A stretch of DNA of 64,000 nt from contig NZ_CP191258.1 of the NCBI RefSeq assembly GCF_050410795.1, positions 1,443,118 to 1,507,117 on the forward strand, in the 5' to 3' direction. The stretch comes from Fontivita pretiosa. Lineage in GTDB: Bacteria; Planctomycetota; Phycisphaerae; Tepidisphaerales; Tepidisphaeraceae. Each line of letters starts with the position of its first letter. Position 1 is the first letter of the stretch. Below are positions 2,792-41,864 of the stretch, piece after piece. The translations under genes were made by a program, and so were the position numbers. The notes below the pieces were generated by a model. The model did not search any database, was not told the origin of the DNA, and worked only from the letters and a program-made list of their open reading frames with translations.

Positions 2792-3673
2792 ATGATCGTT
2801 GATTGTCATACCCATATCTGGCAGTCCCCGGATCAGCTCGGACAAATGGATCTGGGCGACCTGCCGCGCACGACCCGGTCGCGCACGTCGCGGCTGACGC
2901 CCGGCGGGCGAACCATCTGGCGGACCATTCCCGCCGCCGACCCGGAACACCACTGGGCTCAGTCCGGCATGGTGGACAAGTCGATCGTGCTGGCGTTCAA
3001 GAGCCGGTATCTAAAGGCGGAGATCCCCAACCGCTTCGTCGCCGAGTACGTCAGCCGAAACCCCGATAAGCTCATCGGCTTTGCCGGCATCGATCCGACC
3101 GAACGCGGCGCGGTGGATGAGCTGCACGTGGCACATGATGAGCTTCGGCTGCGCGGGATCACCATGTCGCCGGCCAACCAGGACTTCCACCCCGCCGATT
3201 CCCGGGCCATGAAGGTCTACGCCGAAGCTGAAAGGCTCGGCATGCCGATCCTGTTTCACCCCGCCGGGCAGTTCACCGAAGCCAGCAAGCTGGAGTACGC
3301 CCGCCCCTACCTGCTCGACGAGATCGCCCGGGCGTTTCCCCGGCTGCGGATGATCATCGCCCAGATGGGCCAGCCCTGGATCGACGAGACCATTGTTCTG
3401 CTGGGCAAGCATTCAAACGTTTACGCGGACGTCTCGGGGCTTCTGTCGCGTCCGTGGCAGGCGTACAACGCGCTGGTCAGCGCCAACCAGTATGGCGTGA
3501 TCGACAAGCTGCTGTTCGGCTCCGACTTCCCCTACACCAGCGCCACCGAGTGCATCGAAACCCTCTACAGCCTCAATCAGATGGCCCAGGGGACCAACCT
3601 GCCGGTCGTCCCGCGCGAAAGCCTCCGCGGCATCGTCGAACGCGACGCCATCAGCCTGCTCGGAATCGAATGA
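2792..3673 (+). CDS. Amidohydrolase-family (TIM-barrel metal-dependent hydrolase) protein
   Basis: N-terminal DCHTHIW metal-binding motif; ~290 aa with an internal His motif and C-terminal Asp. Confidence 0.75.
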   Translation: MIVDCHTHIWQSPDQLGQMDLGDLPRTTRSRTSRLTPGGRTIWRTIPAADPEHHWAQSGMVDKSIVLAFKSRYLKAEIPNRFVAEYVSRNPDKLIGFAGIDPTERGAVDELHVAHDELRLRGITMSPANQDFHPADSRAMKVYAEAERLGMPILFHPAGQFTEASKLEYARPYLLDEIARAFPRLRMIIAQMGQPWIDETIVLLGKHSNVYADVSGLLSRPWQAYNALVSANQYGVIDKLLFGSDFPYTSATECIETLYSLNQMAQGTNLPVVPRESLRGIVERDAISLLGIE

Positions 3674-4407
3674 ATCCCGACCACGGAATAAGCCAACGGG
3701 CAAAAGTCGCCCGGCTCGCCCAGCACCTCGCAAGATCGGCGGCCTTGCTTTTGCCTTTTGCTCTTTTTCTGCTGTTGCCCCTGGCCTGCTCCTCGGGGCC
3801 GGCCTGGCTGACTTTCCAATCCACGGAGTCTGACCGTCAATATTCCCAGAAGTTTTCCCGCGCTTATTTTGCGCGTGAGCCCGGCGGGGAATATCAGGCG
3901 GTACTGATCGAAGACGGTCTGGCGCCGGCCCCGGAAGACAAGAAGCCTGCCGGCCCGCTGCACGCCGCCTCCACCGCGCCCCTCAGCCAGGTCGTATACC
4001 TGCGGGTCCTGTGGCAACCGTTGCGAGGGGTCAAGCCGGACACGCCCTCGGCCACCAACGCCGTGATCGACTGGTACGTCCGCTCCAACGATGCCGCCAG
4101 CCGTGACGATCAGCTTCACTATCGCGGCGCGGGATTTGTCCGCATCGACGATTCCGGACAGGAGGCGCGATTCGTTATCCGCAATGCCCGAGTGCAACTG
4201 GCCGAAAGCTCGGGCAGGCTTCAGGATCCTCTTGGGCAGTCGCTGCTGACCGGTTCGTTCACCGCGACGAGAAACGATGCCCTGGTCGCCGCGACGCTGG
4301 AGGCGCTGCGCCCGCAGTCGTCCCCGCAACACGCCGACCAATCCGTTGTTCCTGCCGACTCGGCCGCCCACCAGGGTCCGCCCCCGCGCGGCCCAACCGG
4401 GCCATGA
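3670..4407 (+). CDS. Hypothetical lipoprotein
   Basis: ATGA start/stop overlap with the upstream gene. The N-terminus has a hydrophobic signal and lipobox-like LPLACSSG; the upstream part of the tool ORF overlaps the amidohydrolase in another frame. Confidence 0.55.
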   Translation: MNPDHGISQRAKVARLAQHLARSAALLLPFALFLLLPLACSSGPAWLTFQSTESDRQYSQKFSRAYFAREPGGEYQAVLIEDGLAPAPEDKKPAGPLHAASTAPLSQVVYLRVLWQPLRGVKPDTPSATNAVIDWYVRSNDAASRDDQLHYRGAGFVRIDDSGQEARFVIRNARVQLAESSGRLQDPLGQSLLTGSFTATRNDALVAATLEALRPQSSPQHADQSVVPADSAAHQGPPPRGPTGP

Positions 4408-4509
4408 CGCAAACGATTTGTCCCATCCATCGAGCCGGCGGCGGCTTTGGTTCCGACATTGCCCGGCTTTTATATCCCCGCTGAAGCTGGGCACGGATAA
4501 GATGATGGG

Positions 4510-6156
4510 GTGATGTCCGCGACGGAATTGAAGGACAACGAGCTGGCGCGCCGCCAGGGCGATGCGGTGATCTGCCGACCCCAGCCGCTGCGGCTGCGAT
4601 GGGTCTTCGATCAGCTTGCCACCGCCGACGCCCACACGCTGGAGGCCCGCTTCGCCGCCAGCGTTCGCATTGCCGACACCGACGCCGACCGGAAGATGTT
4701 CTCTGAGCTGCTGCTGTGCGATCGGCAGTCGGTCACCGCCCAGATGCTCATCGAGCATTTTGCTCCCCCGTTGCGTGCAGCATTGACGGGGCTGGCCATG
4801 CGCTGCCGGGCCGCCGATGTTGTCGGCAACCCGGATCAGCAACACACCTGGATCGCCGAGCTGCTCCAGGCCGCCAGGCCCGCCGCCTTTGCCGCCGGGC
4901 TGGAGCTTTTGCCCCCTTACCAGCTCGATCTTCAAAGCCCCACGCTCCAGCGGCAGCGAATCCAGGAATTGGCCCGCGCTCAGGCCGAGCAGCACGCCGC
5001 CGGACAGCTTCAGCACCTTCAACGCGCCGCCGAACTGCTCCAGCAGTTCCAGCAGATGCGACAGGCGGCGCCGCAGCTTTCGGCCGGCGCGCTGCTCGAA
5101 CGGCTCAATCCGGCCGACCGCGGGCCGACCCTCCAGGCGCTGCTGCTGGCCTCGGGAAGTGAAACGCGACTGCACCGGCAGACGCTGTGGTGCGTGGCCG
5201 GCGGCACGCTGGTGCGCATCGATCCGGGCAACTCGCCGCAGCCCGAGCTGATCCAGCTTCCCGCCACGCTGGGGCCGCTGCGCAGTGTTCAGCCCGCTGT
5301 CGTGAACGAGCAACGCGTCCTGCTGATCGGCGCGCAAGGCGGGGTGATGGTCGTATCACGGGAAGATCCCGAGCGCATCATCGAGTCCTTCGCCTGCCCG
5401 TCGCTCCAATCGCAGCACGGGTTCAACCGAGTGGTGGTGATCGACGACACGATCTGCGCATCACACGCCGAAGCGGGGATCGTGCGATGGAGTCGCGATC
5501 GCCACGATGCGCCGACGGCGTGCTACGCCGAGCGCGATCCGGACAGCCAACTCGTGGCGCAAGGCACCACCATCACCCAGGGCGCATCCTCGGGCATGGG
5601 CATGACCTCAATCCAGGCTCGCCTTACCGGCCCGCGGCATCTTCAGGCGCTGGATCAGACGCACCTGATTTATGCCGTTGGAAGTCGCATCATCCTGCGG
5701 CACGACGATCGGGCTGTGGTTTTGCCGTCGCACTCCGACGCCGAGATCATTGCGATCCTGCCCACCTCGGCCCAGCACATGCTGGCGATTCATCAGGATG
5801 GGACGATTGTGAGCATCGACCGGACGACGCGACAGGTCAGCGTCAGCATGCGTCGCCCCGGGCGATTCACCGCCGCCGCCACCATGCCGTGGCTGGGTGA
5901 CGTGCGTGTGTTGCTGGCTACAGACGACGGCCCGATCGACTGCATCGGCCTGGACGACCCACTGCTCAGCGAATACCTCAGCCCCTATCGGGGCCTGAAG
6001 ATTCTGGCCGCCACCGCAAGCCTTATCGCCGCCGTCACGCCTGATCGCCAACGTGTGGTGCTGTGGCAGGCGTGGGAGACGCAGCGTCCGCTGTGCGAGG
6101 TGCACGTGACCGGACGTGCCAGGCACCGCATTGCGGATATCGATTTTGACGCCTAG
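4510..6156 (+). CDS. Hypothetical protein (548 aa)
   Basis: Long ORF with balanced composition; the opposing 586-aa minus ORF is R/G-rich and looks like an antisense artefact. Confidence 0.5.
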   Translation: MMSATELKDNELARRQGDAVICRPQPLRLRWVFDQLATADAHTLEARFAASVRIADTDADRKMFSELLLCDRQSVTAQMLIEHFAPPLRAALTGLAMRCRAADVVGNPDQQHTWIAELLQAARPAAFAAGLELLPPYQLDLQSPTLQRQRIQELARAQAEQHAAGQLQHLQRAAELLQQFQQMRQAAPQLSAGALLERLNPADRGPTLQALLLASGSETRLHRQTLWCVAGGTLVRIDPGNSPQPELIQLPATLGPLRSVQPAVVNEQRVLLIGAQGGVMVVSREDPERIIESFACPSLQSQHGFNRVVVIDDTICASHAEAGIVRWSRDRHDAPTACYAERDPDSQLVAQGTTITQGASSGMGMTSIQARLTGPRHLQALDQTHLIYAVGSRIILRHDDRAVVLPSHSDAEIIAILPTSAQHMLAIHQDGTIVSIDRTTRQVSVSMRRPGRFTAAATMPWLGDVRVLLATDDGPIDCIGLDDPLLSEYLSPYRGLKILAATASLIAAVTPDRQRVVLWQAWETQRPLCEVHVTGRARHRIADIDFDA

Positions 6157-6375
6157 CCGCTGCTGCACCGCGCGCACTCGCGCACCACAAGGCAAGGATT
6201 CACGGAAGAACTCGGAGATGCGAGGTCCAATGGCCATGTCAGGCGCGTCCGGCTCGTGGGCTGACCGCCTGCACGGGCTGCTCGCCTGCGCGGACGGAAC
6301 GCCCGCGACACGAAAATAAACAGCCGGCGTTTCGTGCACTGTTCGCGGCTCTGCGCCCTGCTGCGGGGAATCAGA

Positions 6376-7644
6376 TCAAGCGAAGCTGTACGTGCCGCTG
6401 AGCGTTCGCCACTCCTCGATGCTGGTGATCCCCTGTTCGACCTTCAGCCATCCGTCGTGCGCCAGGCTGCGCAGGCCGCGCGACGTGGCGCCGGCGCGCA
6501 GTGCACGCTCATCGGCGTGATGCAGAATCGCGTCATAGTCGGCATCCACCAGTCGCCAGACCTCAAAGACCCCGATGCGACCGTCATAACCGAGATATCG
6601 GCAATCGACGCATCCGGTGGCGGTCCAGGTCTGCTGCGCCGTGGCCGGCAGCCCAAGCGACTGAAGCAACTGCCGCTCGCTTTCCTCCAGGCTGCGCTGC
6701 TTTCTGCACCGGCGACACAGACGTTTGACCAGCCGCTGGGCCACCACCATCCGCAGTGAGCTGGCGATCTGGTGGTCGGCCAGACCGAAGTTTCGCAGCG
6801 CCGTGATCGCGCTGATCGCATCGGGCGCATGAATTGTGCTCATCAGCACGCGTCCGCTGCCGGATGCTTCCATGGCGGCATCGGCGGCTTCGGCGTCGCG
6901 GATCTCGCCCAGCAGCAGGTAATCCGGATCGGCGCGCAGCATGCCCCGCAGTCCCTGCGCGAATGACAGATCATGCCGCCGGTCCACCTGCGTCTGCACG
7001 ATCCCCTCGATGCTGTATTCCACAGGATCCTCGATCGTCACCACGCATCGATCCCGAAGCCGCAGCTCATGCAGGATCGCGTACAGCGTCGTGGTCTTGC
7101 CGCTGCCCGTCGGACCGGCCACCAGAAACATCCCGCAGATGTTCTTCAGCCACTGCTCGATCTTGTCCCGCTGCTCGTCGGTGAAACCCAGCTCGTCCAG
7201 ATGCTGGAGCACGCGCGAGCGATCCAGCAGGCGGATGGACAGCTTCTCCCCGGCGACCGAGGGCAGCGCCGCGATCCGCAGATCGATCTCGCGGCCATCG
7301 ACGATCTGCGTCAGCCGCGAATCCGCCGGGCGGAATCGATCCGCCGAATCCAGCCCCGAGATCGCCTTGAAGTGCCGCAGCAGCCGGCCTCCCTGTGCCC
7401 GCGAGAGAATCGCCACATCCAGCAGATCGCCATCGATGCGAAAGCGGATTCGGCTGCTCTGGCCCTGTGGATCCAGATGAATATCGCTGGCGTGATGTCG
7501 CAGCGCGTCGGCCAGCAGACGGCTGGCCAGCAGGTTGGTCGATTCCGCCGTTTCCGCCAGCGCCTCGGCCTCCTGTCGCAGCAGTTCCTGGCGGAACGAA
7601 GTGCTCAACTCATTGCGCACCGGTCTGATGAATTCGTTGGGCAT
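6376..7644 (-). CDS. GspE/PilB-family secretion ATPase, short form lacking the N1 domain
   Basis: Walker A AGPTGSGKTT; Asp/His boxes; C-terminal tetracysteine CRRC...CVDC zinc motif typical of GspE/PilB. Confidence 0.85.
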   Translation of the reverse strand: MPNEFIRPVRNELSTSFRQELLRQEAEALAETAESTNLLASRLLADALRHHASDIHLDPQGQSSRIRFRIDGDLLDVAILSRAQGGRLLRHFKAISGLDSADRFRPADSRLTQIVDGREIDLRIAALPSVAGEKLSIRLLDRSRVLQHLDELGFTDEQRDKIEQWLKNICGMFLVAGPTGSGKTTTLYAILHELRLRDRCVVTIEDPVEYSIEGIVQTQVDRRHDLSFAQGLRGMLRADPDYLLLGEIRDAEAADAAMEASGSGRVLMSTIHAPDAISAITALRNFGLADHQIASSLRMVVAQRLVKRLCRRCRKQRSLEESERQLLQSLGLPATAQQTWTATGCVDCRYLGYDGRIGVFEVWRLVDADYDAILHHADERALRAGATSRGLRSLAHDGWLKVEQGITSIEEWRTLSGTYSFA

Positions 7645-7716
7645 GCCGGTATTGTAATCGCTGCGCGCGGCGCCGCTGCATCAGCCGACCTCTTCCCGCG
7701 AGGATTGCGCCCGCCG

Positions 7717-10614
7717 CTACTCTGCCGGCGCCGTCGCCGAGGGAACCGCGAAATCCGGGATCAGCTCCCGCCGGAGCTGCTCAAAGTCCTGCTTCCACTT
7801 CCGCCCGCCCACACGCTGGCCCCAGACGATGTACTGCTGCTTGAGGTAGTTGCCCGCCTCTTCTCCGCCGCGGCCAAGCTTCTGGTTCGATCGGATCAGC
7901 TTCAGAATCGCCTCCCAGTACTGGTCGTTGTCGATGAGTCGCTTCTGCCCGTTCTCGATAGTCTCGATTAACGCCGTGCCCAGTTTGCGTCCCACCAGCA
8001 GCCTGCTGAATCCCTCCGCCGCCTGCTCGTAGTTGCCCAGCTCGTAATGAATCAGCGCGATGCCGAACACGACCTGCGGATCGTACGGCGCCTCGCCAGC
8101 GGATTTGGCGTCAAGCGTCTGGCGATACAACGCCAGATTCTCCGCCGATTCCAGCGCCTGATAGCGCTGAAGCGCCAGTTTCAGCCCCGCCTCGCGGGCC
8201 TTGGGGTCGTCGTGTTCCAGATCGGCGGCGCGGCGCTGGGCCTCGGCGTCGAAGACGCGATAGCGGTAGGTGAACCTGCGGATATTGGGATCGCTGTTGT
8301 TGGCCGCCCAGTTGACCAGAAATCCGCTGAGCTGTGCCCGGTTTCTGGCCAGGGATCTCATGGCCGGCGCATCGCCCGCCTGCTGGGCGCGGTCGAAATC
8401 GGCGTTGAGTTTCTGGAGCAGGTTGTAGACGATCTGGGCGCCTCGGGCTCCTTCGGTCCGGTTCAGCAGTTGCACAAGCTGCTCGGTGGCCTGGTTGTAC
8501 TGCTCCAACGCCATATAAGCGCGGACGCGCACATTCATGGCTTCGTTCAGCAGCTCATCGCTGTTGGGCAATCCCTGCACCGCCTGCTCGAAGTTCGCCA
8601 GCAGCGACAACGCCCGCTGCGGGTCTTTCTGCTCGCGGCGCGCCAGCTCCGCCGCCAGCAGCGACGTGCGCGCCAGCATCGACCGCGCCGCCGCCTGTTC
8701 CGCCTGGCCCGACGCCGATGACAGCGACGCCCGCGCCCTGGCATTGACGTCGTCGGCCAGCTTCTGAATCTCCGCCAGGAACTGTCCCCGCCGCGGAGAG
8801 TCCACCGGCTCGTCGGCAAGCTGCTGCTCGATCGCCAGAAGCTGTAAGAATCGCGCCTCCAGCGCCCGCTTATCGTCGGCGGGCACCAGGCGGTAGTACT
8901 CGATCGCCTCGGCCGGCTTGCCATTGAGCTGAAGCCGCCGCGCATACTCGAATGCGAACTCGGTTCGATTGAACGGCTCGGCGATCGCAATCGGAAGGAA
9001 ACGCTCGTAAGCGCGGGTGACGGCCGTATCCTCGCGCGTCTGTTCGTCGGCGCGAAGCTGCCCGATCAGCGCCTGCGCGTTGTCCAGCGCCAGCCGCGCC
9101 TTGTCGGGGTTGGATCTCTTGTGCTCGTCGGCATAGCTGATAAACGCGTCGGCGGCCTCGGGCCCGCGACCCAGCCGCTCCAGGAAAAACGGCACCAGCA
9201 GCGCCGAGGCATCGAGCATCTGCCCGTCGATCTCCGGGCTGCCACGCCTTCGCATCACTTCCCTCGCCGCGTCGATCGCACGCTCGATCGCCTGCCGGTC
9301 GATCTGATCGTCCTTCGGGCGGCGAAGCTCCTGCTCGCCACGCGCGATCAGGGCGCGGAGCATCAGGCCATCCACGCGAGTCAGGTCCGCATTCTCATCC
9401 ATCCGCGGCAACAGTTGATCGTAGATGATCCCACGCAGGTCCGGACGCCTGCTCACCAGATCCATCAGCACCTTCACCGCCTGCTGATTGGCCTGCTCCC
9501 TGGCCGACGGATCCCGCGCCAGCTCGGCCTCGAGGGTCTTGATACGATATTCGAGCATGGCGGCGGCGGCGTCGGCACCGTCGCGCGCGGCTTTGTCCTC
9601 AGCAAGATTGGCACGCTGCCAGGCCAGCAGGTCGCTCAGAGCCTGCTTGGCGGCGGTCAGGTTTTTGGCCAGAAGCTCCGTGACCGCGCTGAAGTATCTG
9701 GCCTCGTACTGCTGGGCGACCGTCGGACGCGGCTCGACCTGATCGTTCAACGTCGCCTCGAACAGCTTGCGCGCCGTGGCAAAGTCGCCTCGCGTCATCG
9801 CCAGCTTGGCCATGCGGTTGCGGACCATGGCGCGATCCGGGTTTTCCGGCACGTCGAACTGCTTGAGATACTCAAACGCCTCCGACGCCACCTGTCGGCG
9901 CTGCGGGCTGGCCGGATCGATCGACAACGCCAGGTAGTACGCCACCATGTGCCGCGTGTACTCCGCCGTCGCCGCCAGACGCTCCGCCTGCTCGTATTTG
10001 GCGATGTACGGACTGTTGGGATCCTTGATCTGGTTGGCGAACTGCTCGGCCTGCTCTTTGGCTCGCTGGGCGCACTTCTCCAGGATCCGGATGACAGTCT
10101 GGACGATCGGGCGAACCGTCGCCTGCGTGCGCGGGTTTTCGCCCCAGTATTCCAGCGTATTGATCTCCCGCTCCACCCCCTGCGTGATCAGCACAAACGC
10201 CTGACGCATCAGCAGATTCGGATCATTGATCGCGGGCAGCGCGCTCTCGATCCCGCGGACGATCTCGGCCACGAGCTGCTGCCGCTGCGCCGGGCTGAGC
10301 CGCGATGACGGATCACTCAGCCGCGACAGCGCGATCAGCGTCCGCCGGCCCTGACGTTCCGCCTGTGGAACGTTGTTCACCTCAAAGGCATATTCCAGCA
10401 GCGAATCCAGCCCCCGGGCCGCAAGCTCATTCATCAGCGCATCATCATCGATCGCGCCCAGCCCCTCCGGCTTCTGTGGCTGCTGGCTGAGTGCCACTGA
10501 GGGCAGCAGAAGCAGAGCGACGAAGACAACGTGATAAGGTGACAGAGTGACAAGGTGAAGCAGAAAACGCCCGGTGATGCTCGGCAATCTCCGCTTGTCC
10601 ACAGATCCCATCAT
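7717..10614 (-). CDS. Large secreted TPR-like helical repeat protein
   Basis: 965 aa; N-terminal hydrophobic signal (VVFVALLLLPSVALSQ); alpha-helical A/L/E/R-rich repeats throughout; tightly spaced after the ExbD genes. Confidence 0.7.
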   Translation of the reverse strand: MMGSVDKRRLPSITGRFLLHLVTLSPYHVVFVALLLLPSVALSQQPQKPEGLGAIDDDALMNELAARGLDSLLEYAFEVNNVPQAERQGRRTLIALSRLSDPSSRLSPAQRQQLVAEIVRGIESALPAINDPNLLMRQAFVLITQGVEREINTLEYWGENPRTQATVRPIVQTVIRILEKCAQRAKEQAEQFANQIKDPNSPYIAKYEQAERLAATAEYTRHMVAYYLALSIDPASPQRRQVASEAFEYLKQFDVPENPDRAMVRNRMAKLAMTRGDFATARKLFEATLNDQVEPRPTVAQQYEARYFSAVTELLAKNLTAAKQALSDLLAWQRANLAEDKAARDGADAAAAMLEYRIKTLEAELARDPSAREQANQQAVKVLMDLVSRRPDLRGIIYDQLLPRMDENADLTRVDGLMLRALIARGEQELRRPKDDQIDRQAIERAIDAAREVMRRRGSPEIDGQMLDASALLVPFFLERLGRGPEAADAFISYADEHKRSNPDKARLALDNAQALIGQLRADEQTREDTAVTRAYERFLPIAIAEPFNRTEFAFEYARRLQLNGKPAEAIEYYRLVPADDKRALEARFLQLLAIEQQLADEPVDSPRRGQFLAEIQKLADDVNARARASLSSASGQAEQAAARSMLARTSLLAAELARREQKDPQRALSLLANFEQAVQGLPNSDELLNEAMNVRVRAYMALEQYNQATEQLVQLLNRTEGARGAQIVYNLLQKLNADFDRAQQAGDAPAMRSLARNRAQLSGFLVNWAANNSDPNIRRFTYRYRVFDAEAQRRAADLEHDDPKAREAGLKLALQRYQALESAENLALYRQTLDAKSAGEAPYDPQVVFGIALIHYELGNYEQAAEGFSRLLVGRKLGTALIETIENGQKRLIDNDQYWEAILKLIRSNQKLGRGGEEAGNYLKQQYIVWGQRVGGRKWKQDFEQLRRELIPDFAVPSATAPAE

Positions 10615-10644
10615 CAGATTGTCACCTTGTCATCCAGTCGTTCA

Positions 10645-11115
10645 TCACCGCGCCGTGGCAAACCCGATCTTCTTGAACTCCGCGGTCATCGCGGCCTGGT
10701 AGACCTCCACCAGATGCTCGTACTTCACCGACCGCGAGGGGCTGATGATGATCTGAACCTTGTCCGGCCCCTTGCCGGCGCGCCCGAACTGATCGCGCAT
10801 GCGCGCCAGCCCGGCGGCCAGGGCGTCCTGACTGCCGGTCTGAATCTGTCCCACCCGCGCGATGTAACCATCGCGTGTTGCGTTCTGATCCACGCGGATC
10901 TCCAGCGGCTCATCGGTGGGAAATCCGCCCGGCGGAGGCTGCACCGCCCCGCCGCCGGTTTCGCGCAGCGGCAGATTGCTGACCAGATACCACTCGGTGC
11001 CGGCGAACGTGCCGGTCATCATCAGGAAGATCAGCAGGACCATCACGACGTCCACCAGCGGCGTCATGTTCGGCCCCGAGTCGTAGTGAACTTTTTTCGC
11101 GCCCTGAATCTTCAT
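10645..11115 (-). CDS. exbD: ExbD/TolR biopolymer transport protein
   Basis: N-terminal TPLVDVVMVLLIFLM single-TM motif; 156 aa. Confidence 0.85.
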   Translation of the reverse strand: MKIQGAKKVHYDSGPNMTPLVDVVMVLLIFLMMTGTFAGTEWYLVSNLPLRETGGGAVQPPPGGFPTDEPLEIRVDQNATRDGYIARVGQIQTGSQDALAAGLARMRDQFGRAGKGPDKVQIIISPSRSVKYEHLVEVYQAAMTAEFKKIGFATAR

Positions 11116-11189
11116 CTTTTCATGTCACCAGCCTCTGGCCCAAGCCCGGCTCGCGCACGAGTGCGACACCCGTGAAACGCAGCCGCGAA

Positions 11190-11750
11190 TCAACGCGTCT
11201 TGCGCACTGTGCTGAAGTTGACGTTGCGGACATTGGCCTCCATACACGCCCGCAGGACCGGCTCCAGGCTGCCGTAGGTCAATCCCGCGCGGCGAGGCTC
11301 GCGGTCCTCCAACCCCTTGTCGCCCCGGATGATGACGCTGAGATGCTCGTTGTCGGCGTTCTCGTCGCTGCCGCCGGGGCGACCGTCCCGTCCGAAGCGC
11401 AGTCGCCGCAGCACCTCCGTCAGCGGCCGCCGGCCCGTCAGCGGGTCCACCACCTTCAGCTCCACCGGCCTGCCTGTCCTGCTCACCGATCCATCGGCCT
11501 CCACCAGCGCCGTGACGAACGGCTGGCCGGCCACCTCGCGCACGTTCAGCACGATCGAGCTGCCCGCGCCGATGTCCTTGATCTCCTTGCCCAGTGCGCT
11601 GGCCGGCAGCTCGATGTCCTGCTCGGCGCCGGTCGTCACCCCGATCTTGGCCACCAGCATGAAGAAGATGATCAGGCACATCACGATGTCGATCAGCGGC
11701 GTGACGTTGACGTTGCCTTCCTTGATGTCGGGCATGCGACGAATTCGCAT
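11190..11750 (-). CDS. exbD: ExbD/TolR biopolymer transport protein (second copy)
   Basis: TPLIDIVMCLIIFFM motif; GGAGG RBS 8 nt upstream of the ATG. Confidence 0.85.
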   Translation of the reverse strand: MRIRRMPDIKEGNVNVTPLIDIVMCLIIFFMLVAKIGVTTGAEQDIELPASALGKEIKDIGAGSSIVLNVREVAGQPFVTALVEADGSVSRTGRPVELKVVDPLTGRRPLTEVLRRLRFGRDGRPGGSDENADNEHLSVIIRGDKGLEDREPRRAGLTYGSLEPVLRACMEANVRNVNFSTVRKTR

Positions 11751-11778
11751 CGCGCACCTCCGTCGTCAGTCGCTTCTG

Positions 11779-12711
11779 TCATGGTTGCGGAGAGATGCTG
11801 GGCTTGGCCCGGCCCATCGCCGGTGGAGGCGGAGCCACCGGCTGGGGAATCCCGATGTTCGGCTGCGGCGCGGCGCGCATCCCAGCCGGGATCGTCGGCG
11901 AAGGCACGGCGGGCCTGGCCTCGGCGGGCTTGATCATCAAAAGCAGCTCCTCGGCCACCAGCGCGCCGCGGATCGTCAGCCGGTCCACCATCGTCCGCAG
12001 AACGCCGAACGCCGCCAGACATGGCACCGCCAGAAACAACCCCAGAAACGTGTGCGCCAGCGCCTTGCTGATGCCGTGCGCAAGCTGAGCCGGATTGGCA
12101 TTGCCTCCCGCCGCGTGCATCTCGCTGAACGCGTCGATCATCCCAAGCACCGTCCCCAGCAGCCCCAGCAGCGGCCCGAGGTTCCCGATGATGTTCAGGT
12201 ACTCGATCTTGCGGAACTGCTCGGCGGTCTGCTCGCCAATGGCGGTTTCCATCGCCTCCTTCATCGCGCTGAAGGATGGGGCCCGCTTCAGGGCCGGGTT
12301 CAGGGCCTTGCTGATGAAGCTGGGGTCCTGCTCGGTGAACTCGATCAGCTCGCGAAAGCGACGCTGCGCGATCATCTCCCGGATCAGGTTGGTGGTCTGC
12401 GGGGGCATGAACACGGCGGCGCGGTTCTTGATGAAGCCCTGGATGATCAGCGTCAGACCGGTCACCGACAGAAGGATGATAATGAAGAAGACAAAGTCGA
12501 TGTTCTGGAGGATCAGTGCCGCAAGCCCGACCTTCTGTGCCGCCGGTGTTGCGCCGGGCGTCGCGGAAGGCGCCGCTGCCGAAGGCACAGCCCCGCCGGG
12601 CGCGGGCGAGTCCTGTGCGTGGCTGCCGCTGGTGCTGAGCAACACCCCCGCCGCCAGCAGCATCCCCGCCAGCAGAATCAATCTGAGCTTCGATGTCGCA
12701 TATCGCCGCAT
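11779..12711 (-). CDS. exbB: MotA/TolQ/ExbB proton-channel protein
   Basis: C-terminal GPLLGLLGTVLGMIDAF motif. Start moved to ATG (MRRYATSK) with an AAGGA RBS; the tool start is an alternative GTG. N-terminal signal plus an Ala/Pro-rich extension. Confidence 0.85.
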   Translation of the reverse strand: MRRYATSKLRLILLAGMLLAAGVLLSTSGSHAQDSPAPGGAVPSAAAPSATPGATPAAQKVGLAALILQNIDFVFFIIILLSVTGLTLIIQGFIKNRAAVFMPPQTTNLIREMIAQRRFRELIEFTEQDPSFISKALNPALKRAPSFSAMKEAMETAIGEQTAEQFRKIEYLNIIGNLGPLLGLLGTVLGMIDAFSEMHAAGGNANPAQLAHGISKALAHTFLGLFLAVPCLAAFGVLRTMVDRLTIRGALVAEELLLMIKPAEARPAVPSPTIPAGMRAAPQPNIGIPQPVAPPPPAMGRAKPSISPQP

Positions 12712-12725
12712 GTCACATCCTTCTT

Positions 12726-13832
12726 CTACAAATCCTGCCGATCGATGATCCTGCACACCCCTCCGTTCTCCGAAGCAATGGTGCGGACGACCTTTTCCAG
12801 CTCCGGGCTGTGGGTGCTGCGGATCAGGATCACGTTCACCCGCACCTTGCGGTCCGCATTCAGCCTGCGGAATTCGTTGATCACGGCGTCGAAGCTCACG
12901 ACTGCTTCGAAACCGTCGGTCAGCACGTAAATCAGCTCCGGCTGCTGTTGAAACGCCAGGCGGATCGCTGGCAGCGGATCCGTCGATCCGGCGCTGGTCA
13001 TCTTCTGCGACAGCTCGAAGGCCCGGCGTTTCTGCTCGGGATTGGCCATCACCAGCCGGTCTTTGCTCAGCGCGATCACGTCCACATCAGAGAAGAAAAT
13101 GACGTTGAAGGCCTGGATCGGCTTCAAGACTTCCACGGCCTTTCGCAGCTCGTCCTGTACGCGTGGGAACACGCCCCACATGGAGCCGGAGGCATCGCAG
13201 ATATAGACGACTTTTCGGGCGTTGCCGGAGATGCCCATGAACGGGGACTTTGGCCCCAGCCCCTGTCCGCCGCCGGGCACGCCGAACGGCGCCATCGGCC
13301 CGCCGCCTTCTCCGCCGGCGCCGCCGCTTCCCTGGGGTCCTGAGCCGGCGATGCCGCTGCGCAGCCCCAGGCCGATCACCGAATCCGCCGCGTCCGGCGC
13401 CGCCCCGGCCATCAGCGTACTGGTCAGCGATTCGCTGCGTTTCTGCGCCCAGCCGTCGGCGGCGGTGATGTGCGGGTCCACGTCCTGTGCCGCCGACAGG
13501 TTCGGATCGCCTCCCAGCCCCGGATTGGGCAATCCACCCACGTCGGCGTTCTCCACAATCGCCGCCTCGGGGATGATCACCTGCTCGCGCGTGGGGCTGA
13601 CCATCTGCGGCACTGTCTTCAGCAGCGCATAGCCAATGATCAGCAGCGACAGGTGAAACACGATCGACGTCGCCAGCGGCAGCAGATTCTGCACCGTCGG
13701 GTTGCGCAGGAAGCTGACGTGCACCAGCGGGGCAGGAGGATTTTGTCCTGCGGCCGGCGGCGGCCCGTCGGCAGCGGAGAGCTGCGCCTCGGGAAAGCGG
13801 GCCGCTTCGGACATCGGCTGCTGGATCGACAT
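12726..13832 (-). CDS. von Willebrand factor A (vWA) domain membrane protein
   Basis: vWA MIDAS-like VVYICDASGSM, with a TM helix and Gly-rich linker; start chosen at MSIQQPM with an AGGAAG RBS. Confidence 0.75.
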   Translation of the reverse strand: MSIQQPMSEAARFPEAQLSAADGPPPAAGQNPPAPLVHVSFLRNPTVQNLLPLATSIVFHLSLLIIGYALLKTVPQMVSPTREQVIIPEAAIVENADVGGLPNPGLGGDPNLSAAQDVDPHITAADGWAQKRSESLTSTLMAGAAPDAADSVIGLGLRSGIAGSGPQGSGGAGGEGGGPMAPFGVPGGGQGLGPKSPFMGISGNARKVVYICDASGSMWGVFPRVQDELRKAVEVLKPIQAFNVIFFSDVDVIALSKDRLVMANPEQKRRAFELSQKMTSAGSTDPLPAIRLAFQQQPELIYVLTDGFEAVVSFDAVINEFRRLNADRKVRVNVILIRSTHSPELEKVVRTIASENGGVCRIIDRQDL

Positions 13833-14100
13833 CGCGACGACTTCCTGGAACGTTTGCGGTTTCCGCGATTCGTGCGTGCTTTGCGTCTGCACGACCCCGC
13901 CGCAGGCTCCCACGCGCCCGAGCATTCACCAGCAGGAATGACCCGCACGGCCCGGGCGGAAACCTTGCCTGCGGTCCGGATCCATTCGACGTACCGTGCT
14001 CACCTTCCCGCCGTGCATTCTAAGCACAGCTTTGGGCAGGAAAAGCGGACTGTTCGGCTTTTTTTCGCGAATCGCGGCAACGGTATAATACTTTTGCCCG

Positions 14101-14742
14101 ATGCTGCTCAAACGTATTGCCATCGTTGTGTCGCTGGTGCTGGCCGGGGGCGTGGCGCTGCTGTGGGGCCGCAGCTACGCCGTCGGCGACCGCTACCGAT
14201 GGGTACGCATTCAGGATGCGCCCTCGGGGCGATTCGTGATGAGCAGCGGGGGCTTCGCCACCGGGATCGGCGGCATCCGGTTCGTCTACGAAGCCGTGGA
14301 CAGCACCGACCCCAATGTAATCGATCGGACCCGACGACGGCTGGACGGGATCAGCCGCTGGGCGCCGCCAGGATACCGCACCATCGACCCGCCTCGTTAC
14401 CCGATGCGCGAGGCGAGCAACGATTCGGTCCTGGCGTCGCTGGGGTTTCATTTCGATCACTGGAGCAACAGTTCGCCGACCAGCCGCCAACGACAATTGA
14501 CTGTCACGGTGCCGTTCTGGGCCATCTTCCTGGCGCTGATCGGCTACCCCCTGGGGCGATACGTGGCGGGGGTGGTGCGGCGTCAAAGGGAGGATCGCCT
14601 GGCGTTGGGACTGTGCCCACGATGCGGCGTGCCGTTGAACGATGCCTTGTCGCGATGTCCCGGATGCGATCGCCCGATTCCACGTCCCAACACGACCGAA
14701 AACGCATTGAGCTCCGCCAGCGAAGCTCGCTCGGCGGTGTGA
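14101..14742 (+). CDS. Hypothetical membrane protein with C-terminal zinc ribbon
   Basis: Two hydrophobic segments and CPRCG...CPGCD near the C-terminus. Confidence 0.5.
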   Translation: MLLKRIAIVVSLVLAGGVALLWGRSYAVGDRYRWVRIQDAPSGRFVMSSGGFATGIGGIRFVYEAVDSTDPNVIDRTRRRLDGISRWAPPGYRTIDPPRYPMREASNDSVLASLGFHFDHWSNSSPTSRQRQLTVTVPFWAIFLALIGYPLGRYVAGVVRRQREDRLALGLCPRCGVPLNDALSRCPGCDRPIPRPNTTENALSSASEARSAV

Positions 14743-14761
14743 GCCGCGTGGCTACCAGTCA

Positions 14762-15104
14762 TTGCCGACACCGGATCGAATGCTGCTGATCGTCGCGATT
14801 CTCATCGCCGCAACCGTTCCGGCCGTGTGGGCGACCGGCCGAATCCTGAGCATCGATCATGCCCCGCCGCTGCTGCGACGCCTGGCCGGCTGGTTCGTGC
14901 CCTGGGGGGCATGCGTGTGGCTGGCCTGGTCGCTGATGTGGCAGGCGAACCTTCCCCGGCTGGACTGGAACGCCTGCCGACTGGCGCCGGTTGTGGGCAT
15001 GCTGTACGGCTACAGGCTGTACAACGTCCCGGAGCAGGGTCCGATCAGCACACACATCTATGGCCCGGTGTGGGCGCTGGCAATGCTGCCGGCGGCGAAC
15101 GTTT
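14762..15104 (+). pseudogene. N-terminal fragment of a polytopic membrane protein, truncated at the left edge of the tandem array
   Basis: Hydrophobic N-terminal ~115 codons. The reading frame then runs out of frame through repeat-derived sequence (R/D/E-rich, junk-like). Confidence 0.35.
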
Positions 15105-15380
15105 CCCGATGTCGTGATCGCCGGGCAGAGCATGATCGAAATCAAGCGAGTACAATCGCTGCAACTGACCGACCAGTTCAGAGCACAGATCCAGGCGGCG
15201 AAAGAGCATGGATTGAACTATCGGATCATCGTTTCGGATACCCTGGTTGGAGATCCGCATCCAGACCTTACGGGTCTGATGACGGATCTGCTCTTGAACC
15301 GGGCCAACGGAAAGACCGCGAGCATCGAAAAGTACGACAGCATTCAGAGGAAGCTGGTGAAGATATGGCCCTTGGAATAG
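15093..15380 (+). pseudogene. 5'-truncated copy (copy 1) of the 157-aa PD-(D/E)xK-like gene
   Basis: Homology to copies 2 and 3 begins at ...gcggcgaacgtttcccgatg. It retains RRTFPDVVIAGQSMIEIK...PLE but lacks the N-terminal ~60 codons. Confidence 0.5.
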
Positions 15381-16438
15381 GCATGGCATACCTGAGTTTT
15401 GTTGCTGAAGAGATGCTATCAGACGACGCGCTCGTTCAGCTCACGCTCGACTTTGCGGCGCGATTCCCACGCCTGGCTCCCCAGGAGATCGGGTTGAAGC
15501 CGGAAGCGGTCAGATTCGATTCCGCCAGGCTCAAATCGGTGCTGACCCCGGAGCGACTGGAGTTCGGTTGGAGTTGGAGACGAAGTAGACCTGACATAGA
15601 AGGTCGCAGATCGCGCGACCCCCGTGATGGGGACGAGAATGAGTACCTCTCCATCGACTTGGATCATGTCGAGCAGCAGGAACTGCTCGAGGTGGCCGAG
15701 TGGTATGCCCAGCGGGTGCGACTGGCATACGCTCACATCCATGTCCTGTCCGAGCCGGAGGCGCAGCATGCGGCCGCGCGAGGTTTGGCCTTCCTGGGAA
15801 TATCGCCTCAGGCTCACAAAGATCCACAGGCATGGAGCTACTACCCGCGGAATCTGAATCAGCTCTGCAACGGCATTCCCGACCTGTGCTGGGTGACGGT
15901 CTTCGGGCCGATGTACGTCCGTCACTTTGGTCGCGAGCGGCTGCTGTCGGCCCCGGCGCCGGTCGTGCGCGAGATCGCGACGGATACCATCCTGCTGCAA
16001 CTGAGCCACAGCTACACTGAGGTCGCCACGGACTGGGAGAAGTTCAATGCCACGCGCGAGGCGGTCATCGACCATCTCGGCCGCGAGTGCTTCAACCGCA
16101 GTGCACGCCCAGCGATCCCCCACCCAGCGGACAGCTGCGACGCACGGCTCGTGGATGTGGATCCGCGTTTCATCCCGCGGGAGTTGATGCCCCGGCGACA
16201 GAAGTTTCTCGCCGCCGCCTCGACTCCGCCCGAAGCCCTGCCCCCGCCGCTGACTAGCCTTGAGGAAATGCTCGCGCACGTTGGCCGACTGAAGGTGATA
16301 ACGATCATGGGTTCGCGCGTCCTGATCGATAAGGAGCGAAAGGAGCTGATCGGGTTCGCCGATCCGAAACTGGCCGAGGAATGGATCGACAAGCTCATCG
16401 CCGCCGGGGTGGAGGCGCAGGGGACGAGTCAACGGTGA
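15365..16438 (+). CDS. 357-aa hypothetical protein, cassette copy 1 (candidate immunity/partner)
   Basis: Near-identical to 16915..17988. Contains a local -1/+1 compensated frameshift (FNRSARPAIPHPADSC vs FNRVRTPSDPPPSGQR) relative to copies 2 and 3. Confidence 0.6.
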   Translation: MALGIGMAYLSFVAEEMLSDDALVQLTLDFAARFPRLAPQEIGLKPEAVRFDSARLKSVLTPERLEFGWSWRRSRPDIEGRRSRDPRDGDENEYLSIDLDHVEQQELLEVAEWYAQRVRLAYAHIHVLSEPEAQHAAARGLAFLGISPQAHKDPQAWSYYPRNLNQLCNGIPDLCWVTVFGPMYVRHFGRERLLSAPAPVVREIATDTILLQLSHSYTEVATDWEKFNATREAVIDHLGRECFNRSARPAIPHPADSCDARLVDVDPRFIPRELMPRRQKFLAAASTPPEALPPPLTSLEEMLAHVGRLKVITIMGSRVLIDKERKELIGFADPKLAEEWIDKLIAAGVEAQGTSQR

Positions 16439-16456
16439 CGACGTCGCTGGACTGCC

Positions 16457-16930
16457 GTGCGAGTCCGTTGGGCGCCACCCGGCCGCCTTCTGGCTGCCAA
16501 GCGGGCGGCCCAAATGATCCAGAACGCGGCCGCGGGGATGAAGTTCCAGAATGAGATGCGACTGCTTTTGCGGGAGGTGGAGCAACTGGACGTGCCGGCG
16601 AAAAAGCGATTCTTCGACGTGGTCCTCGCTACGGGCAGGGCGCGGCGAACGTTTCCCGATGTCGTGATCGCCGGGCAGAGCATGATCGAAATCAAGCGAG
16701 TACAATCGCTGCAACTGACCGACCAGTTCAGAGCACAGATCCAGGCGGCGAAAGAGCATGGATTGAATTATCGGATCATCGTTTCGGATACCCTGGTTGG
16801 AGATCCGGATCCACGCCTTACGCGTCTGATGACGGATCTGCTCTTGAACCGGGCCAACGGAAAGACCGCGAGCATCGAAAAGTACGACAGCATTCAGAGG
16901 AAGCTGGTGAAGATATGGCCCTTGGAATAG
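16457..16930 (+). CDS. 157-aa PD-(D/E)xK nuclease-fold-like small protein, cassette copy 2 (candidate toxin)
   Basis: FFDVVL...FPDVVIAG-x5-IEIK resembles an Hjc/YraN-type PD-(D/E)xK signature; overlaps the downstream gene by 16 nt. The true start may be an internal ATG (MIQNAAAG or MKFQNE). Confidence 0.55.
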   Translation: MRVRWAPPGRLLAAKRAAQMIQNAAAGMKFQNEMRLLLREVEQLDVPAKKRFFDVVLATGRARRTFPDVVIAGQSMIEIKRVQSLQLTDQFRAQIQAAKEHGLNYRIIVSDTLVGDPDPRLTRLMTDLLLNRANGKTASIEKYDSIQRKLVKIWPLE

Positions 16931-17988: not shown

Positions 17989-18006
17989 CGACGTCGCTGG
18001 ACTGCC

Positions 18007-18480
18007 GTGCGAGTCCGTTGGGCGCCACCCGGCCGCCTTCTGGCTGCCAAGCGGGCGGCCCAAATGATCCAGAACGCGGCCGCGGGGATGAAGTTCCAGA
18101 ATGAGATGCGACTGCTTTTGCGGGAGGTGGAGCAACTGGACGTGCCGGCGAAAAAGCGATTCTTCGACGTGGTCCTCGCTACGGGCAGGGCGCGGCGAAC
18201 GTTTCCCGATGTCGTGATCGCCGGGCAGAGCATGATCGAAATCAAGCGAGTACAATCGCTGCAACTGACCGACCAGTTCAGAGCACAGATCCAGGCGGCG
18301 AAAGAGCATGGATTGAATTATCGGATCATCGTTTCGGATACCCTGGTTGGAGATCCGCATCCAGACCTTACGGGTCTGATGAGGGACCTGCTCTTGAACC
18401 GGGCCAACGGAAAGACCGCGAGCATCGAAAAGTACGACAGCATTCAGAGGAAGCTGGTGAAGATATGGCCCTTGGAATAG
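18007..18480 (+). CDS. 157-aa PD-(D/E)xK-like small protein, cassette copy 3
   Basis: Identical to copy 2 except the C-terminal DPHPDLTGLMRD segment. Confidence 0.55.
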   Translation: MRVRWAPPGRLLAAKRAAQMIQNAAAGMKFQNEMRLLLREVEQLDVPAKKRFFDVVLATGRARRTFPDVVIAGQSMIEIKRVQSLQLTDQFRAQIQAAKEHGLNYRIIVSDTLVGDPHPDLTGLMRDLLLNRANGKTASIEKYDSIQRKLVKIWPLE

Positions 18481-41642: not shown

Positions 41643-41864
41643 CGTACATCGCTCCTTCTGACAAGAGGGTCCGCGCCACAGCCCTGCGGCGCGCACGCAA
41701 ACACTGTGACCAGCAGACAAACAGGTTATCGGAAAGATCGGACCGGTTTGATGAACCTGTCCGCTTGGAACACCAGGAACCTCAGGAAGCACTTTCGATG
41801 ACCCGGGCCACGCACTCGGTTCGCTCATTGTGCCCCACGAATCGGGGGCGCGACGGGAAAATCA

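What the first reader, a model, noticed from the sequence alone, without database searches (positions are those of the whole stretch)
6376..13832. Six-gene minus-strand operon: vWA - ExbB - ExbD - ExbD - 965-aa secreted TPR protein - GspE/PilB-family ATPase
All six genes are co-directional with 0-72-bp gaps or overlaps (12726/12711, 11779/11750, 11190/11115, 10645/10614, 7717/7644), consistent with one transcription unit. ExbB/ExbD pmf-motor genes with a large periplasmic TPR scaffold and a vWA protein resemble TonB-like or gliding-type envelope machines. A tightly linked GspE-family ATPase is not part of the canonical Ton/Tol systems. This one has N2 and C-terminal domains with a tetracysteine zinc motif but no N1 domain, and no pilin or pseudopilin genes lie adjacent. 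The combination suggests a composite envelope-spanning apparatus that pairs a proton-driven motor with a cytoplasmic secretion-type ATPase. No TonB-like Pro-rich gene is evident in the operon.
Basis: partly seen in the sequence, partly recalled or inferred. Interest (0 to 1): 0.6.

Follow-up and report, generated by a model that had tools for sequence, protein, structure and literature searches.

The report
vWA-headed TonB-like motor module, unrelated ATPase
Five of the six genes form a conserved, recently described but untested envelope machine in which a proton-driven ExbB/ExbD motor pulls on a TonB-like anchor with a von Willebrand A head; the secretion-type ATPase beside it is a neighbour only in this one species.

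Summary
The six co-directional minus-strand genes exist as described, in Fontivita pretiosa (Tepidisphaerales, Planctomycetota). The interpretation splits in two.

(1) vWA, ExbB, ExbD, ExbD and TPR form a tightly conserved five-gene module. All four genes upstream of the TPR gene are present and collinear in 30 of 33 related loci with enough flank (TPR identity 35-69%).

The vWA protein is itself the TonB/TolA-type transducer. It has an N-terminal transmembrane helix with invariant Ser-x-x-x-His, a conserved post-helix segment, a roughly 120-residue disordered Gly/Pro linker, and a C-terminal vWA domain with a complete MIDAS site.

This architecture and gene neighbourhood were described computationally in 2025 (Mol Biol Evol, PMC12204202) as a new class of "vWA force transducers" of unknown function.

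(2) The GspE-type ATPase is not part of the module. None of 34 related loci with downstream flank has it adjacent, and only one has any GspE gene within 10 kb. Its orthologues (66-75% identity) sit alone in unrelated neighbourhoods. The 64-kb window holds no GspF, pilin or secretin gene.

This is a new member of a known, uncharacterised kind.

The parts
12726..13832 (-). Force transducer (368 aa). It has a short N-terminal tail and a transmembrane helix at about residues 45-77 carrying Ser56-x-x-x-His60. A conserved post-helix segment follows (REQVIIPEAAIVE...PNPGLGGDPN), then a disordered Gly/Pro-rich linker to about residue 201. The C-terminal vWA domain (205-368) has a MIDAS site: D213-A-S-G-S217, a Thr in 'GSTDP', and D306 in 'LTDG'.
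   Evidence: S56 and H60 are invariant in a 36-sequence alignment at 44-73% identity. All 35 orthologous or paralogous ORFs in 31 loci have SxxxH in a hydrophobic helix, and 34 of 35 have DxSxSM. AF2 model: helix pLDDT 84-95, linker below 50, vWA above 90. Top Foldseek PDB hits are all vWA domains, E 2e-10 to 1e-8. Pfam VWA_3 scores 26.2 bits.
11779..12711 (-). ExbB/TolQ-like pentameric proton-channel subunit (310 aa). It has a signal-peptide-like N-terminus and a Pro-rich C-terminal tail.
   Evidence: Pfam MotA_ExbB 1e-27. It is below every NCBIfam equivalog cut-off. The closest solved relative is TolQ at 2e-10. The GLLGTVxGM Thr motif is conserved in 33 of 35 orthologues.
11190..11750 (-). 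ExbD/TolR-like subunit 1 (186 aa), with the transmembrane Asp (D21) in 'TPLIDIV'.
   Evidence: Pfam ExbD 1e-12. It is only 27% identical to the second ExbD. The Asp motif is present in 69 of 76 ExbD ORFs across loci by a strict regular expression, and most of the rest have the Asp with variant flanking residues.
10645..11115 (-). ExbD/TolR-like subunit 2 (156 aa), with the transmembrane Asp (D22) in 'TPLVDVV'. It is the likely heterodimer partner of subunit 1.
   Evidence: Pfam ExbD 5e-17. It is always paired with subunit 1 in related loci.
7717..10614 (-). Secreted 965-aa all-alpha TPR-like solenoid: signal peptide, 44 helices and one beta-hairpin at residues 882-895. It is the last gene of the conserved module.
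6376..7644 (-). Orphan N1-less GspE/PilB-family ATPase (422 aa). It is adjacent to the module, and possibly co-transcribed with it, only in this genome. It is not a conserved component.
   Evidence: T2SSE 8e-106. EpsE structure 1p9r at 1e-85. 100% identical to a protein NCBI names 'GspE/PulE family protein [Fontivita pretiosa]'. Adjacent to the module in 0 of 34 related loci. Orthologues are solitary.
13833..14100 (.). Divergent intergenic region of 268 bp upstream of the transducer gene, and the likely promoter region of the operon.
   Evidence: Sequence read. A plus-strand ORF starts at 14101. No sigma-70 consensus was found, which is not informative for Planctomycetota.

Best explanation
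Genes 1-5 (12726-13832 to 7717-10614) encode a Ton/Tol-type proton-motive-force machine of the 'vWA force transducer' class.

Inferred from homology to solved ExbBD-TonB and TolQRA complexes: an ExbB/TolQ-like pentamer surrounds a heterodimer of the two divergent ExbD/TolR-like proteins. Each of these keeps the proton-binding transmembrane Asp. Proton flow drives the motor. The transducer's N-terminal helix docks on the outside of the pentamer through its Ser-x-x-x-His face, and its conserved post-helix segment is caught by the ExbD periplasmic domains. The flexible linker of about 120 residues then transmits a pulling force across the periplasm.

Shown here: in place of the TonB/TolA C-terminal domain, the transducer ends in a vWA domain with an intact MIDAS metal site. 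It would therefore grip an acidic residue of a partner protein rather than add a beta-strand to a TonB box.

Inferred from strict co-occurrence and from analogy with GltD in the Myxococcus Agl-Glt machine and with CpoB in Tol-Pal: the secreted 965-aa TPR solenoid is the periplasmic scaffold or target.

The cellular output is unknown. It could be outer-membrane tethering or remodelling, activation of a surface adhesin, or uptake.

The sixth gene, the GspE-type ATPase, is an orphan cytoplasmic ATPase. A lineage-specific rearrangement placed it downstream of the module. It may be co-transcribed, but it is not a component.
For: Module conservation:
- vWA, ExbB, ExbD and ExbD are collinear and co-directional with the TPR gene in 30 of 33 loci with at least 3.8 kb of upstream flank, across TPR identities of 35-69%.
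- Only these five families recur when all neighbouring genes are clustered.

Transducer features:
- S56 and H60 are invariant, Q84/I86/P88 are conserved, and the MIDAS residues are conserved.
- 35 of 35 ORFs have SxxxH and 34 of 35 have DxSxSM.
- The AF2 topology is helix, disordered linker, vWA domain. Foldseek hits are exclusively vWA domains.

Motor:
- MotA_ExbB and two ExbD Pfam hits. The two ExbD proteins are 27% identical to each other. The Asp and Thr motifs are conserved.

Literature:
[quoted passage not shown] Its AF3 models place the conserved His at the TonB/TolA site on the motor.

ATPase exclusion:
- 0 of 34 loci have an adjacent GspE gene and 1 of 34 has any within 10 kb.
- Orthologues at 75, 70 and 66% identity lie in unrelated contexts.
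- Both flanks of the module differ from those of the closest relatives. A secretin gene lies upstream in 3 loci, and a convergent gene of about 210 aa lies downstream in about 12. Neither is in the window.
- No GspF, pilin or secretin gene occurs anywhere in the 64-kb window.
Against: - No experiment exists for any member of the class. Docking to the motor, pmf dependence and the MIDAS ligand are all inferred.
- Only Ser and His of the four-residue SHLS motif are present. The positions of TonB Leu27 and Ser31 are Gly and Leu here.
- The post-helix segment is modelled as disordered in the monomer, so its role as a 'motor box' strand is untested.
- The ExbB protein lacks the Glu found at TolQ E173 / ExbB E176. 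That position is K here and T/K/V/L/I/A in orthologues.
- I could not compare directly with the Tichowtungia reference proteins of the published class.
- The 72-bp TPR-to-ATPase gap has no recognisable terminator, so co-transcription in F. pretiosa cannot be excluded.
- No relative closer than 69% TPR identity was available to date the rearrangement.
Confidence: 0.8

Rival explanations
1. One reading: all six genes build one composite trans-envelope apparatus in which a pmf-driven ExbBD motor and a cytoplasmic GspE-type ATPase work together.
For: The ATPase gene is on the same strand, 72 bp downstream of the TPR gene, with no consensus terminator between them. The ATPase looks intact.
Against: None of 34 related loci has the ATPase adjacent. 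Its orthologues are solitary and sit elsewhere. No GspF-type membrane platform, which GspE ATPases normally need, is found in the window. The module is complete and conserved without the ATPase.
Confidence: 0.04
2. A looser functional link: the vWA/TolQR module works with a dispersed secretin-based (T2SS/T4P-like) system. On this view, different lineages happen to keep different components next to it: a secretin in three relatives and the GspE ATPase in F. pretiosa.
For: A TPR+Secretin gene of 1221-1288 aa lies immediately upstream, on the same strand, of the transducer gene in the three closest relatives, L006, L008 and L009. F. pretiosa instead has the GspE ATPase downstream. Two independent adjacencies to T2SS/T4P-family genes are somewhat more than my rough chance estimate, which was on the order of 0.2 events across these flanks. 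That estimate is not a computed result.
Against: The three loci with a secretin are one clade, so they count as one event. More than 27 other loci show neither gene. Planctomycete genomes carry many scattered GspE and secretin paralogues. There is no direct evidence.
Confidence: 0.08
3. An ordinary TonB-dependent uptake or Tol-Pal system, in which the vWA gene is an unrelated BatA-like neighbour and the true TonB/TolA is encoded elsewhere.
For: ExbB/ExbD Pfam hits, and weak TolQ/TolR similarity in NCBIfam and the PDB. Many genomes encode TonB away from exbBD.
Against: The vWA protein itself carries the invariant SxxxH helix and linker and co-occurs strictly with the motor. No TonB_C, TolB or Pal hit came from any ORF scanned in the window, and none is listed in the precomputed Pfam annotation of the six loci looked up. 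All motor proteins score far below the ExbB/ExbD/TolQ/TolR equivalog cut-offs.
Confidence: 0.06

Closest known systems
'vWA force transducer' loci of PVC bacteria (Mol Biol Evol 2025, msaf138; PMC12204202; reference locus in Tichowtungia aerotolerans)
   Same: The transducer has an SHLS-type helix with the conserved His, a conserved post-helix segment, a disordered linker of about 100 residues and a vWA C-terminal domain. It is encoded next to one tolQ-like gene, two heterologous tolR-like genes and an uncharacterised TPR gene. The paper names Planctomycetes among the phyla that have it.
   Different: Here the gene order is transducer, tolQ, tolR, tolR, TPR, whereas the paper's text says the transducer is 'downstream of' the others. 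There is one transducer copy here, while Tichowtungia and some Tepidisphaerales loci have two. Only Ser and His of the SHLS motif are kept. Direct sequence comparison with the reference was not possible.
ExbB-ExbD-TonB (Ton) and TolQ-TolR-TolA (Tol-Pal) systems
   Same: A 5:2-type MotA/ExbB/TolQ channel with Asp-bearing ExbD/TolR subunits. A single-pass transducer with an SxxxH helix and a long periplasmic linker. A TPR partner, as CpoB/YbgF is in Tol-Pal.
   Different: The C-terminal domain is vWA with a MIDAS site, not the TonB/TolA fold. There are two divergent ExbD paralogues instead of a homodimer. No TolB, Pal or TonB-dependent receptor is linked. ExbB lacks the conserved transmembrane Glu. 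All proteins are far below the equivalog cut-offs.
Myxococcus xanthus Agl-Glt gliding (focal adhesion) machine (PMC11761067)
   Same: A TolQ-like pentamer with a heterodimer of two different TolR-like proteins (AglR5-AglQ-AglS). Single-pass TonB-like transducers (GltG/GltJ). A large periplasmic TPR 'pillar' (GltD, about 1200 aa). A vWA adhesin (CglB) at the output end.
   Different: Here the vWA domain is fused to the inner-membrane transducer itself. No Glt outer-membrane barrels, cytoplasmic platform or MglA-type regulators are linked. No homology beyond the domain level was shown, and gliding is not known for this organism.
Type II secretion / type IV pilus assembly ATPases (GspE/EpsE, PilB)
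   Same: The sixth gene has the N2 and C-terminal ATPase domains, Walker motifs and a tetracysteine zinc motif. Its best solved match is Vibrio EpsE lacking N1.
   Different: It has no N1 domain, and orthologues are natively 424-465 aa. No GspF/GspL/pilin/secretin partners are nearby. It scores below the GspE and PilB equivalog cut-offs, 381 against 630 bits.

Membership tests
vWA force transducer module (PMC12204202) | N-terminal transmembrane helix with the TonB/TolA SHLS motif, in particular the motor-binding His | tested here: met
   S56 and H60 are invariant in 36 sequences. 35 of 35 ORFs in 31 loci have SxxxH in a hydrophobic helix, as do 131 of 145 top library representatives. The Leu and second Ser positions of the full motif are Gly and Leu here.
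vWA force transducer module (PMC12204202) | Disordered region after the helix containing a 'motor box' strand | tested here: inconclusive
   A strongly conserved segment follows the helix, (R/K)EQ(I/V)I(I/V)P(D/E)A.I(V/I)E, with Q84, I86 and P88 invariant or nearly so. It has pLDDT below 50 and no strand in the monomer model. A complex model with ExbD could not be run.
vWA force transducer module (PMC12204202) | Domain II: disordered or Pro-rich linker of about 100 residues | tested here: met
   Residues 83-201 are mostly below pLDDT 50 and Gly/Pro-rich.
vWA force transducer module (PMC12204202) | C-terminal globular domain with a vWA fold | tested here: met
   Residues 205-368 have pLDDT above 90. 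Foldseek PDB hits are all vWA domains, E down to 2e-10. The MIDAS DxSxS...T...D residues are conserved. Pfam VWA_3 scores 26.2 bits against a 27-bit cut-off, and many orthologues pass it.
vWA force transducer module (PMC12204202) | [quoted passage not shown] | tested here: met
   30 of 33 loci. The two ExbD proteins are 27% identical to each other.
vWA force transducer module (PMC12204202) | Sequence homology to the Tichowtungia aerotolerans reference transducers | not tested
vWA force transducer module (PMC12204202) | Physical docking of the helix on the motor pentamer and pmf-dependent force transduction | not testable with these tools
   This needs multimer modelling or experiment.
Canonical Ton system | TonB C-terminal domain (PF03544 or related) on the transducer, and a linked TonB-dependent receptor | tested here: not met
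   No TonB_C hit on any of the six proteins. No TonB-dependent receptor was detected among the window ORFs scanned.
Tol-Pal system | tolB and pal linked to tolQRA, with TolQ/TolR equivalog-level similarity | tested here: not met
   No TolB or Pal (OmpA-family) hit came from any window ORF scanned, and none is listed in the precomputed Pfam annotation of the six loci looked up. TolQ scores 65.8 bits against a 221-bit cut-off, and TolR 37.8 against 127.
T2SS / T4P machinery including the ATPase | GspE/PilB ATPase encoded with, or conserved alongside, platform (GspF/PilC), pilin-like and secretin genes | tested here: not met
   The ATPase domain is present, but no partner genes occur in the 64-kb window. 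Orthologues are solitary.
   Adjacent in 0 of 34 loci, and any GspE within 10 kb in 1 of 34. None of 3 ATPase-orthologue loci contains module genes.

The most novel reading that the evidence does not exclude
The vWA-transducer/TolQR/TPR module is functionally tied to a dispersed secretin-type system. The orphan N1-less GspE ATPase in F. pretiosa and the TPR-secretin gene upstream in its three closest relatives would then be two remnants of one pmf-plus-ATP-powered trans-envelope machine.
Probability: 0.07. Interest if true: 0.7.

Novelty: new member of a known kind. Interest (0 to 1): 0.3.

Why it matters
The conserved five-gene module is a clean example, from a cultivated strain, of a third type of Ton/Tol-like force transducer that has only been predicted computationally. 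Fontivita pretiosa is an isolate, so it offers a possible route to the first phenotype, MIDAS ligand and structure for this class. The family is large: about 1,000 clusters at 50% identity match the profile at E of 1e-30 or better. Showing that the ATPase is a bystander also prevents a false 'hybrid motor' annotation from spreading.

Tried and rejected
- **Terminator/promoter scan of 5900-14800.** Nothing informative was found, and sigma-70 consensus sequences are not expected to apply in this phylum.
- **NCBIfam scan.** No equivalog-level assignment for any module protein.
- **Secretin in the window.** The secretin seen upstream in three relatives was sought in the window and not found.
- **ATPase gene pair.** I asked whether the ATPase travels with the convergent 548-aa ORF (4510-6156). 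That ORF has no homologue in any fetched locus and no Pfam hit.
- **BatA-E aerotolerance operon (vWA plus TPR).** Considered from memory and rejected. No MoxR or DUF58 genes are present here, and the vWA protein has the TonB-type helix and is linked to a motor.
- **Paper supplement.** Searched for Tepidisphaerales or Phycisphaerae entries and found none.
- **Metagenome scan for more ATPase contexts.** Not run, because 34 negative module loci and 3 negative ATPase loci seemed sufficient.
Full report
**Observation.** The window is a GC-rich (about 65%) stretch of Fontivita pretiosa, order Tepidisphaerales, class Phycisphaerae, phylum Planctomycetota. The ATPase is 100% identical to a protein NCBI names 'GspE/PulE family protein [Fontivita pretiosa]'. 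The homologues of the TPR protein that carry a source name come from Tepidisphaeraceae and Phycisphaerae MAGs.

Third-position GC of 0.79-0.90 marks them as the coding frames. Gaps between them are 14, 28, 74, 30 and 72 bp. Pfam confirms MotA_ExbB (1e-27), two ExbD proteins (1e-12 and 5e-17), weak TPR repeats, T2SSE (8e-106) and a borderline VWA_3 hit of 26.2 bits against a 27-bit cut-off.

The ATPase aligns end to end with the N1-deleted Vibrio EpsE structure 1p9r at 1e-85. It carries Walker A and the CxxC...CxxC motif. The factual description therefore holds, apart from the statement that no TonB-like gene is present.

**Is the six-gene linkage conserved?** I collected relatives of the 965-aa TPR protein, which is the most lineage-specific marker. 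There are 94 full-length homologues at 36-69% identity. I fetched their genomic neighbourhoods in two ways:
- six metagenome or MAG contigs by exact look-up;
- 37 loci from species-representative genomes by a pattern scan with the TPR alignment.

I then ran tblastn with the six window proteins against all loci and tallied the non-redundant ones.
- Among 33 loci with at least 3.8 kb upstream of the TPR gene, 30 have vWA, ExbB, ExbD and ExbD in the same order and strand as the window.
- Among 34 loci with at least 1.5 kb downstream, none has a GspE homologue adjacent.
- Only one locus (L029) has any GspE homologue within 10 kb. It begins 4.7 kb away, is 37% identical, and consists of three tandem GspE/PilT-like hits, apparently a separate ATPase cluster.

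The ATPase's own closest orthologues are natively N1-less (424-445 aa) at 75, 70 and 66% identity. They sit alone in three unrelated neighbourhoods with no module genes.

An all-against-all clustering of every plausible ORF in the flanks shows that only the five module families recur. The next most frequent neighbours are:
- an ORF family of about 414 aa upstream in 10 loci, whose L001 member has a precomputed Acetyltransf_9 hit;
- a convergent gene of about 210-244 aa downstream in 9-12 loci.

Neither is in the window. In the three closest relatives a TPR+Secretin gene of 1221-1288 aa lies immediately upstream of the transducer gene. In the window that position is taken by a tandem toxin-like cassette array. 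F. pretiosa has thus been rearranged on both sides of an otherwise fixed five-gene block, and the ATPase lies outside the block. No GspF/PilC, pilin or secretin gene was found in any of the roughly 40 ORFs I scanned across the 64-kb window.

**What the first gene really is.** Orthologous ORFs extracted from the loci showed a recurring hydrophobic helix containing Ser-x-x-x-His. In a formal alignment of the window protein with 35 database homologues at 44-73% identity:
- Ser56 and His60 are invariant;
- the segment just after the helix, (R/K)EQ(I/V)I(I/V)P(D/E)AAIVEG...GGIPNPGLGGDPN, is the most conserved part of the protein, with Q84, I86, P88, P104 and G105 invariant or nearly so;
- the C-terminal domain keeps a full MIDAS signature: D213-x-S-x-S217, a Thr in G-(S/T)-T-(D/N)-P, and T305-D306-G307.

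All 35 vWA-family ORFs in 31 loci have SxxxH in a hydrophobic helix. This includes the second paralogue present in some loci. 34 of the 35 have DxSxSM.

The AlphaFold2 model gives a confident helix at residues 45-77 (pLDDT 84-95). Residues 83-201 form a largely disordered, Gly/Pro-rich region. Residues 205-368 form a confident alpha/beta domain with pLDDT above 90. The Foldseek matches of that domain in the PDB are exclusively vWA domains: ITIH1, the calcium-channel alpha2delta subunit, CMG2/ANTXR and integrin I domains, with E from 2e-10 downwards. This is the three-domain plan of TonB and TolA with the C-terminal domain swapped for a vWA domain.

**The motor and the TPR protein.** Both ExbD paralogues keep the transmembrane Asp (D21 and D22). 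They are only 27% identical to each other, and the pair is conserved across loci. This argues for a heterodimer inside the ExbB pentamer, as modelled for AglQ/AglS in Myxococcus.

The ExbB-like protein is about as far from solved TolQ (2e-10) as from ExbB (1e-8). It scores far below every NCBIfam equivalog cut-off. It keeps the Thr-containing GLLGTVxGM motif. At the position of TolQ E173 / ExbB E176 it has Lys, and the orthologues have T/K/V/L/I/A there, never Glu.

**Comparison with what is known.** A full-text search found a 2025 Mol Biol Evol paper, 'Origin and Evolution of Bacterial Periplasmic Force Transducers' (PMC12204202). [quoted passage not shown]
- a transmembrane helix bearing the SHLS motif;
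- a domain II of about 100 residues;
- a vWA C-terminal domain.

The paper reports these proteins in Proteobacteria, Planctomycetes, Verrucomicrobia, Bacteroidetes and Rhodothermaeota. [quoted passage not shown] Its AF3 models place the conserved His at the TonB/TolA-binding site of the motor. The authors state that no phenotype is known, and they speculate about gliding.

The window's five-gene block meets each of these features except the motor-box strand, which I could only test by sequence conservation. I could not make a direct comparison with the Tichowtungia reference proteins.

The family is large. A profile of the transducer alignment finds 1,019 clusters at 50% identity with E of 1e-30 or better among 1.84 billion representatives. 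Of the top 145 representatives, 131 carry SxxxH, and most of the rest are fragments or signal-peptide vWA paralogues.

**Mechanism, with its basis.**
- Shown: gene content and order, conservation of the Ser/His helix, MIDAS conservation, the linker-plus-vWA topology, and ATPase adjacency that is not conserved.
- Inferred from solved ExbBD-TonB and TolQRA structures as summarised in PMC12204202: the helix docks on the outside of the pentamer through its His, ExbD captures the post-helix strand, and proton flow generates a pulling force.
- Inferred from vWA biology: the MIDAS metal binds an acidic side chain of a partner.
- Speculative: the TPR solenoid is that partner or a periplasmic pillar like GltD, and the output concerns the outer membrane or the cell surface.

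**Verdict.** It is a Ton/Tol-like, possibly gliding-like, envelope machine.

The residual novel reading is a link to secretin-type systems. It rests on a secretin gene next to the module in one clade and a GspE gene next to it in F. pretiosa, and I put it at about 7%. The module is a new member, in a cultivated species, of a kind already described computationally. Interest is moderate to low (0.3). Its value lies in offering a cultured organism for the first experiments on this class.

Noticed in passing
window 14762-19538 (+): A tandem repeat of about 1.55 kb, present in about three copies. Each unit holds a 157-aa ORF with a Tox-REase-7 hit (PF15649, 28 bits; 16457-16930 and 18007-18480) followed by a 357-aa ORF with no Pfam hit (16915-17988 and 18465-19538). 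A third copy of the 357-aa ORF forms the C-terminal part of 14762-16438. GC is lower here (0.59-0.61 against about 0.65). It looks like a polymorphic-toxin/immunity cassette array. It occupies the position where the closest relatives have a secretin gene.
   Followed up: partly
L006 2548-6414; L008 3042-6707; L009 about 3078-6767: A TPR+Secretin gene of 1221-1288 aa lies immediately upstream, on the same strand, of the transducer gene. This holds only in the three closest relatives of the window's module and not in the window.
   Followed up: partly
window 11779-12711 (-) and orthologues: The ExbB/TolQ-like protein has Lys at the position of the conserved transmembrane Glu (TolQ E173 / ExbB E176), within 'GISKAL'. 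Orthologues have T/K/V/L/I/A there and never Glu.
   Followed up: partly
L003, L021, L029, L036, L038 (second transducer); L003, L033, L035, L038 (third ExbD): Some Tepidisphaerales loci carry two tandem SxxxH-vWA transducer paralogues and/or a third ExbD gene. This echoes the two transducers reported for Tichowtungia.
   Followed up: partly
L018 4399-4854: In one relative the second ExbD has Asn in place of the proton-binding transmembrane Asp ('MPVVNVAM').
   Followed up: no
L040 9731-12829: A TPR homologue at 36% identity, in a MAG labelled Planctomycetaceae. It has no vWA, ExbB or ExbD gene within 10 kb upstream and is the only clean exception to the synteny.
   Followed up: no
L047 236-1048; L048 480-1457: Two of the three ATPase-orthologue contigs have a YfdX-family gene (PF10938) upstream of the ATPase, immediately so in L047 and about 3 kb away in L048. 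This may be the ATPase's real conserved neighbour. No such gene lies next to it in the window.
   Followed up: no
window 4510-6156 (+): A 548-aa ORF convergent with the ATPase, with good coding statistics (third-position GC 0.80). It has no Pfam or NCBIfam hit and no homologue in any fetched locus.
   Followed up: partly
window 39477-41828 (-) and 42016-45546 (-): Two large adjacent RTX-repeat proteins (HemolysinCabind at 1e-96 and 2e-131). The first also has a weak 'Planctomycete extracellular' motif.
   Followed up: no
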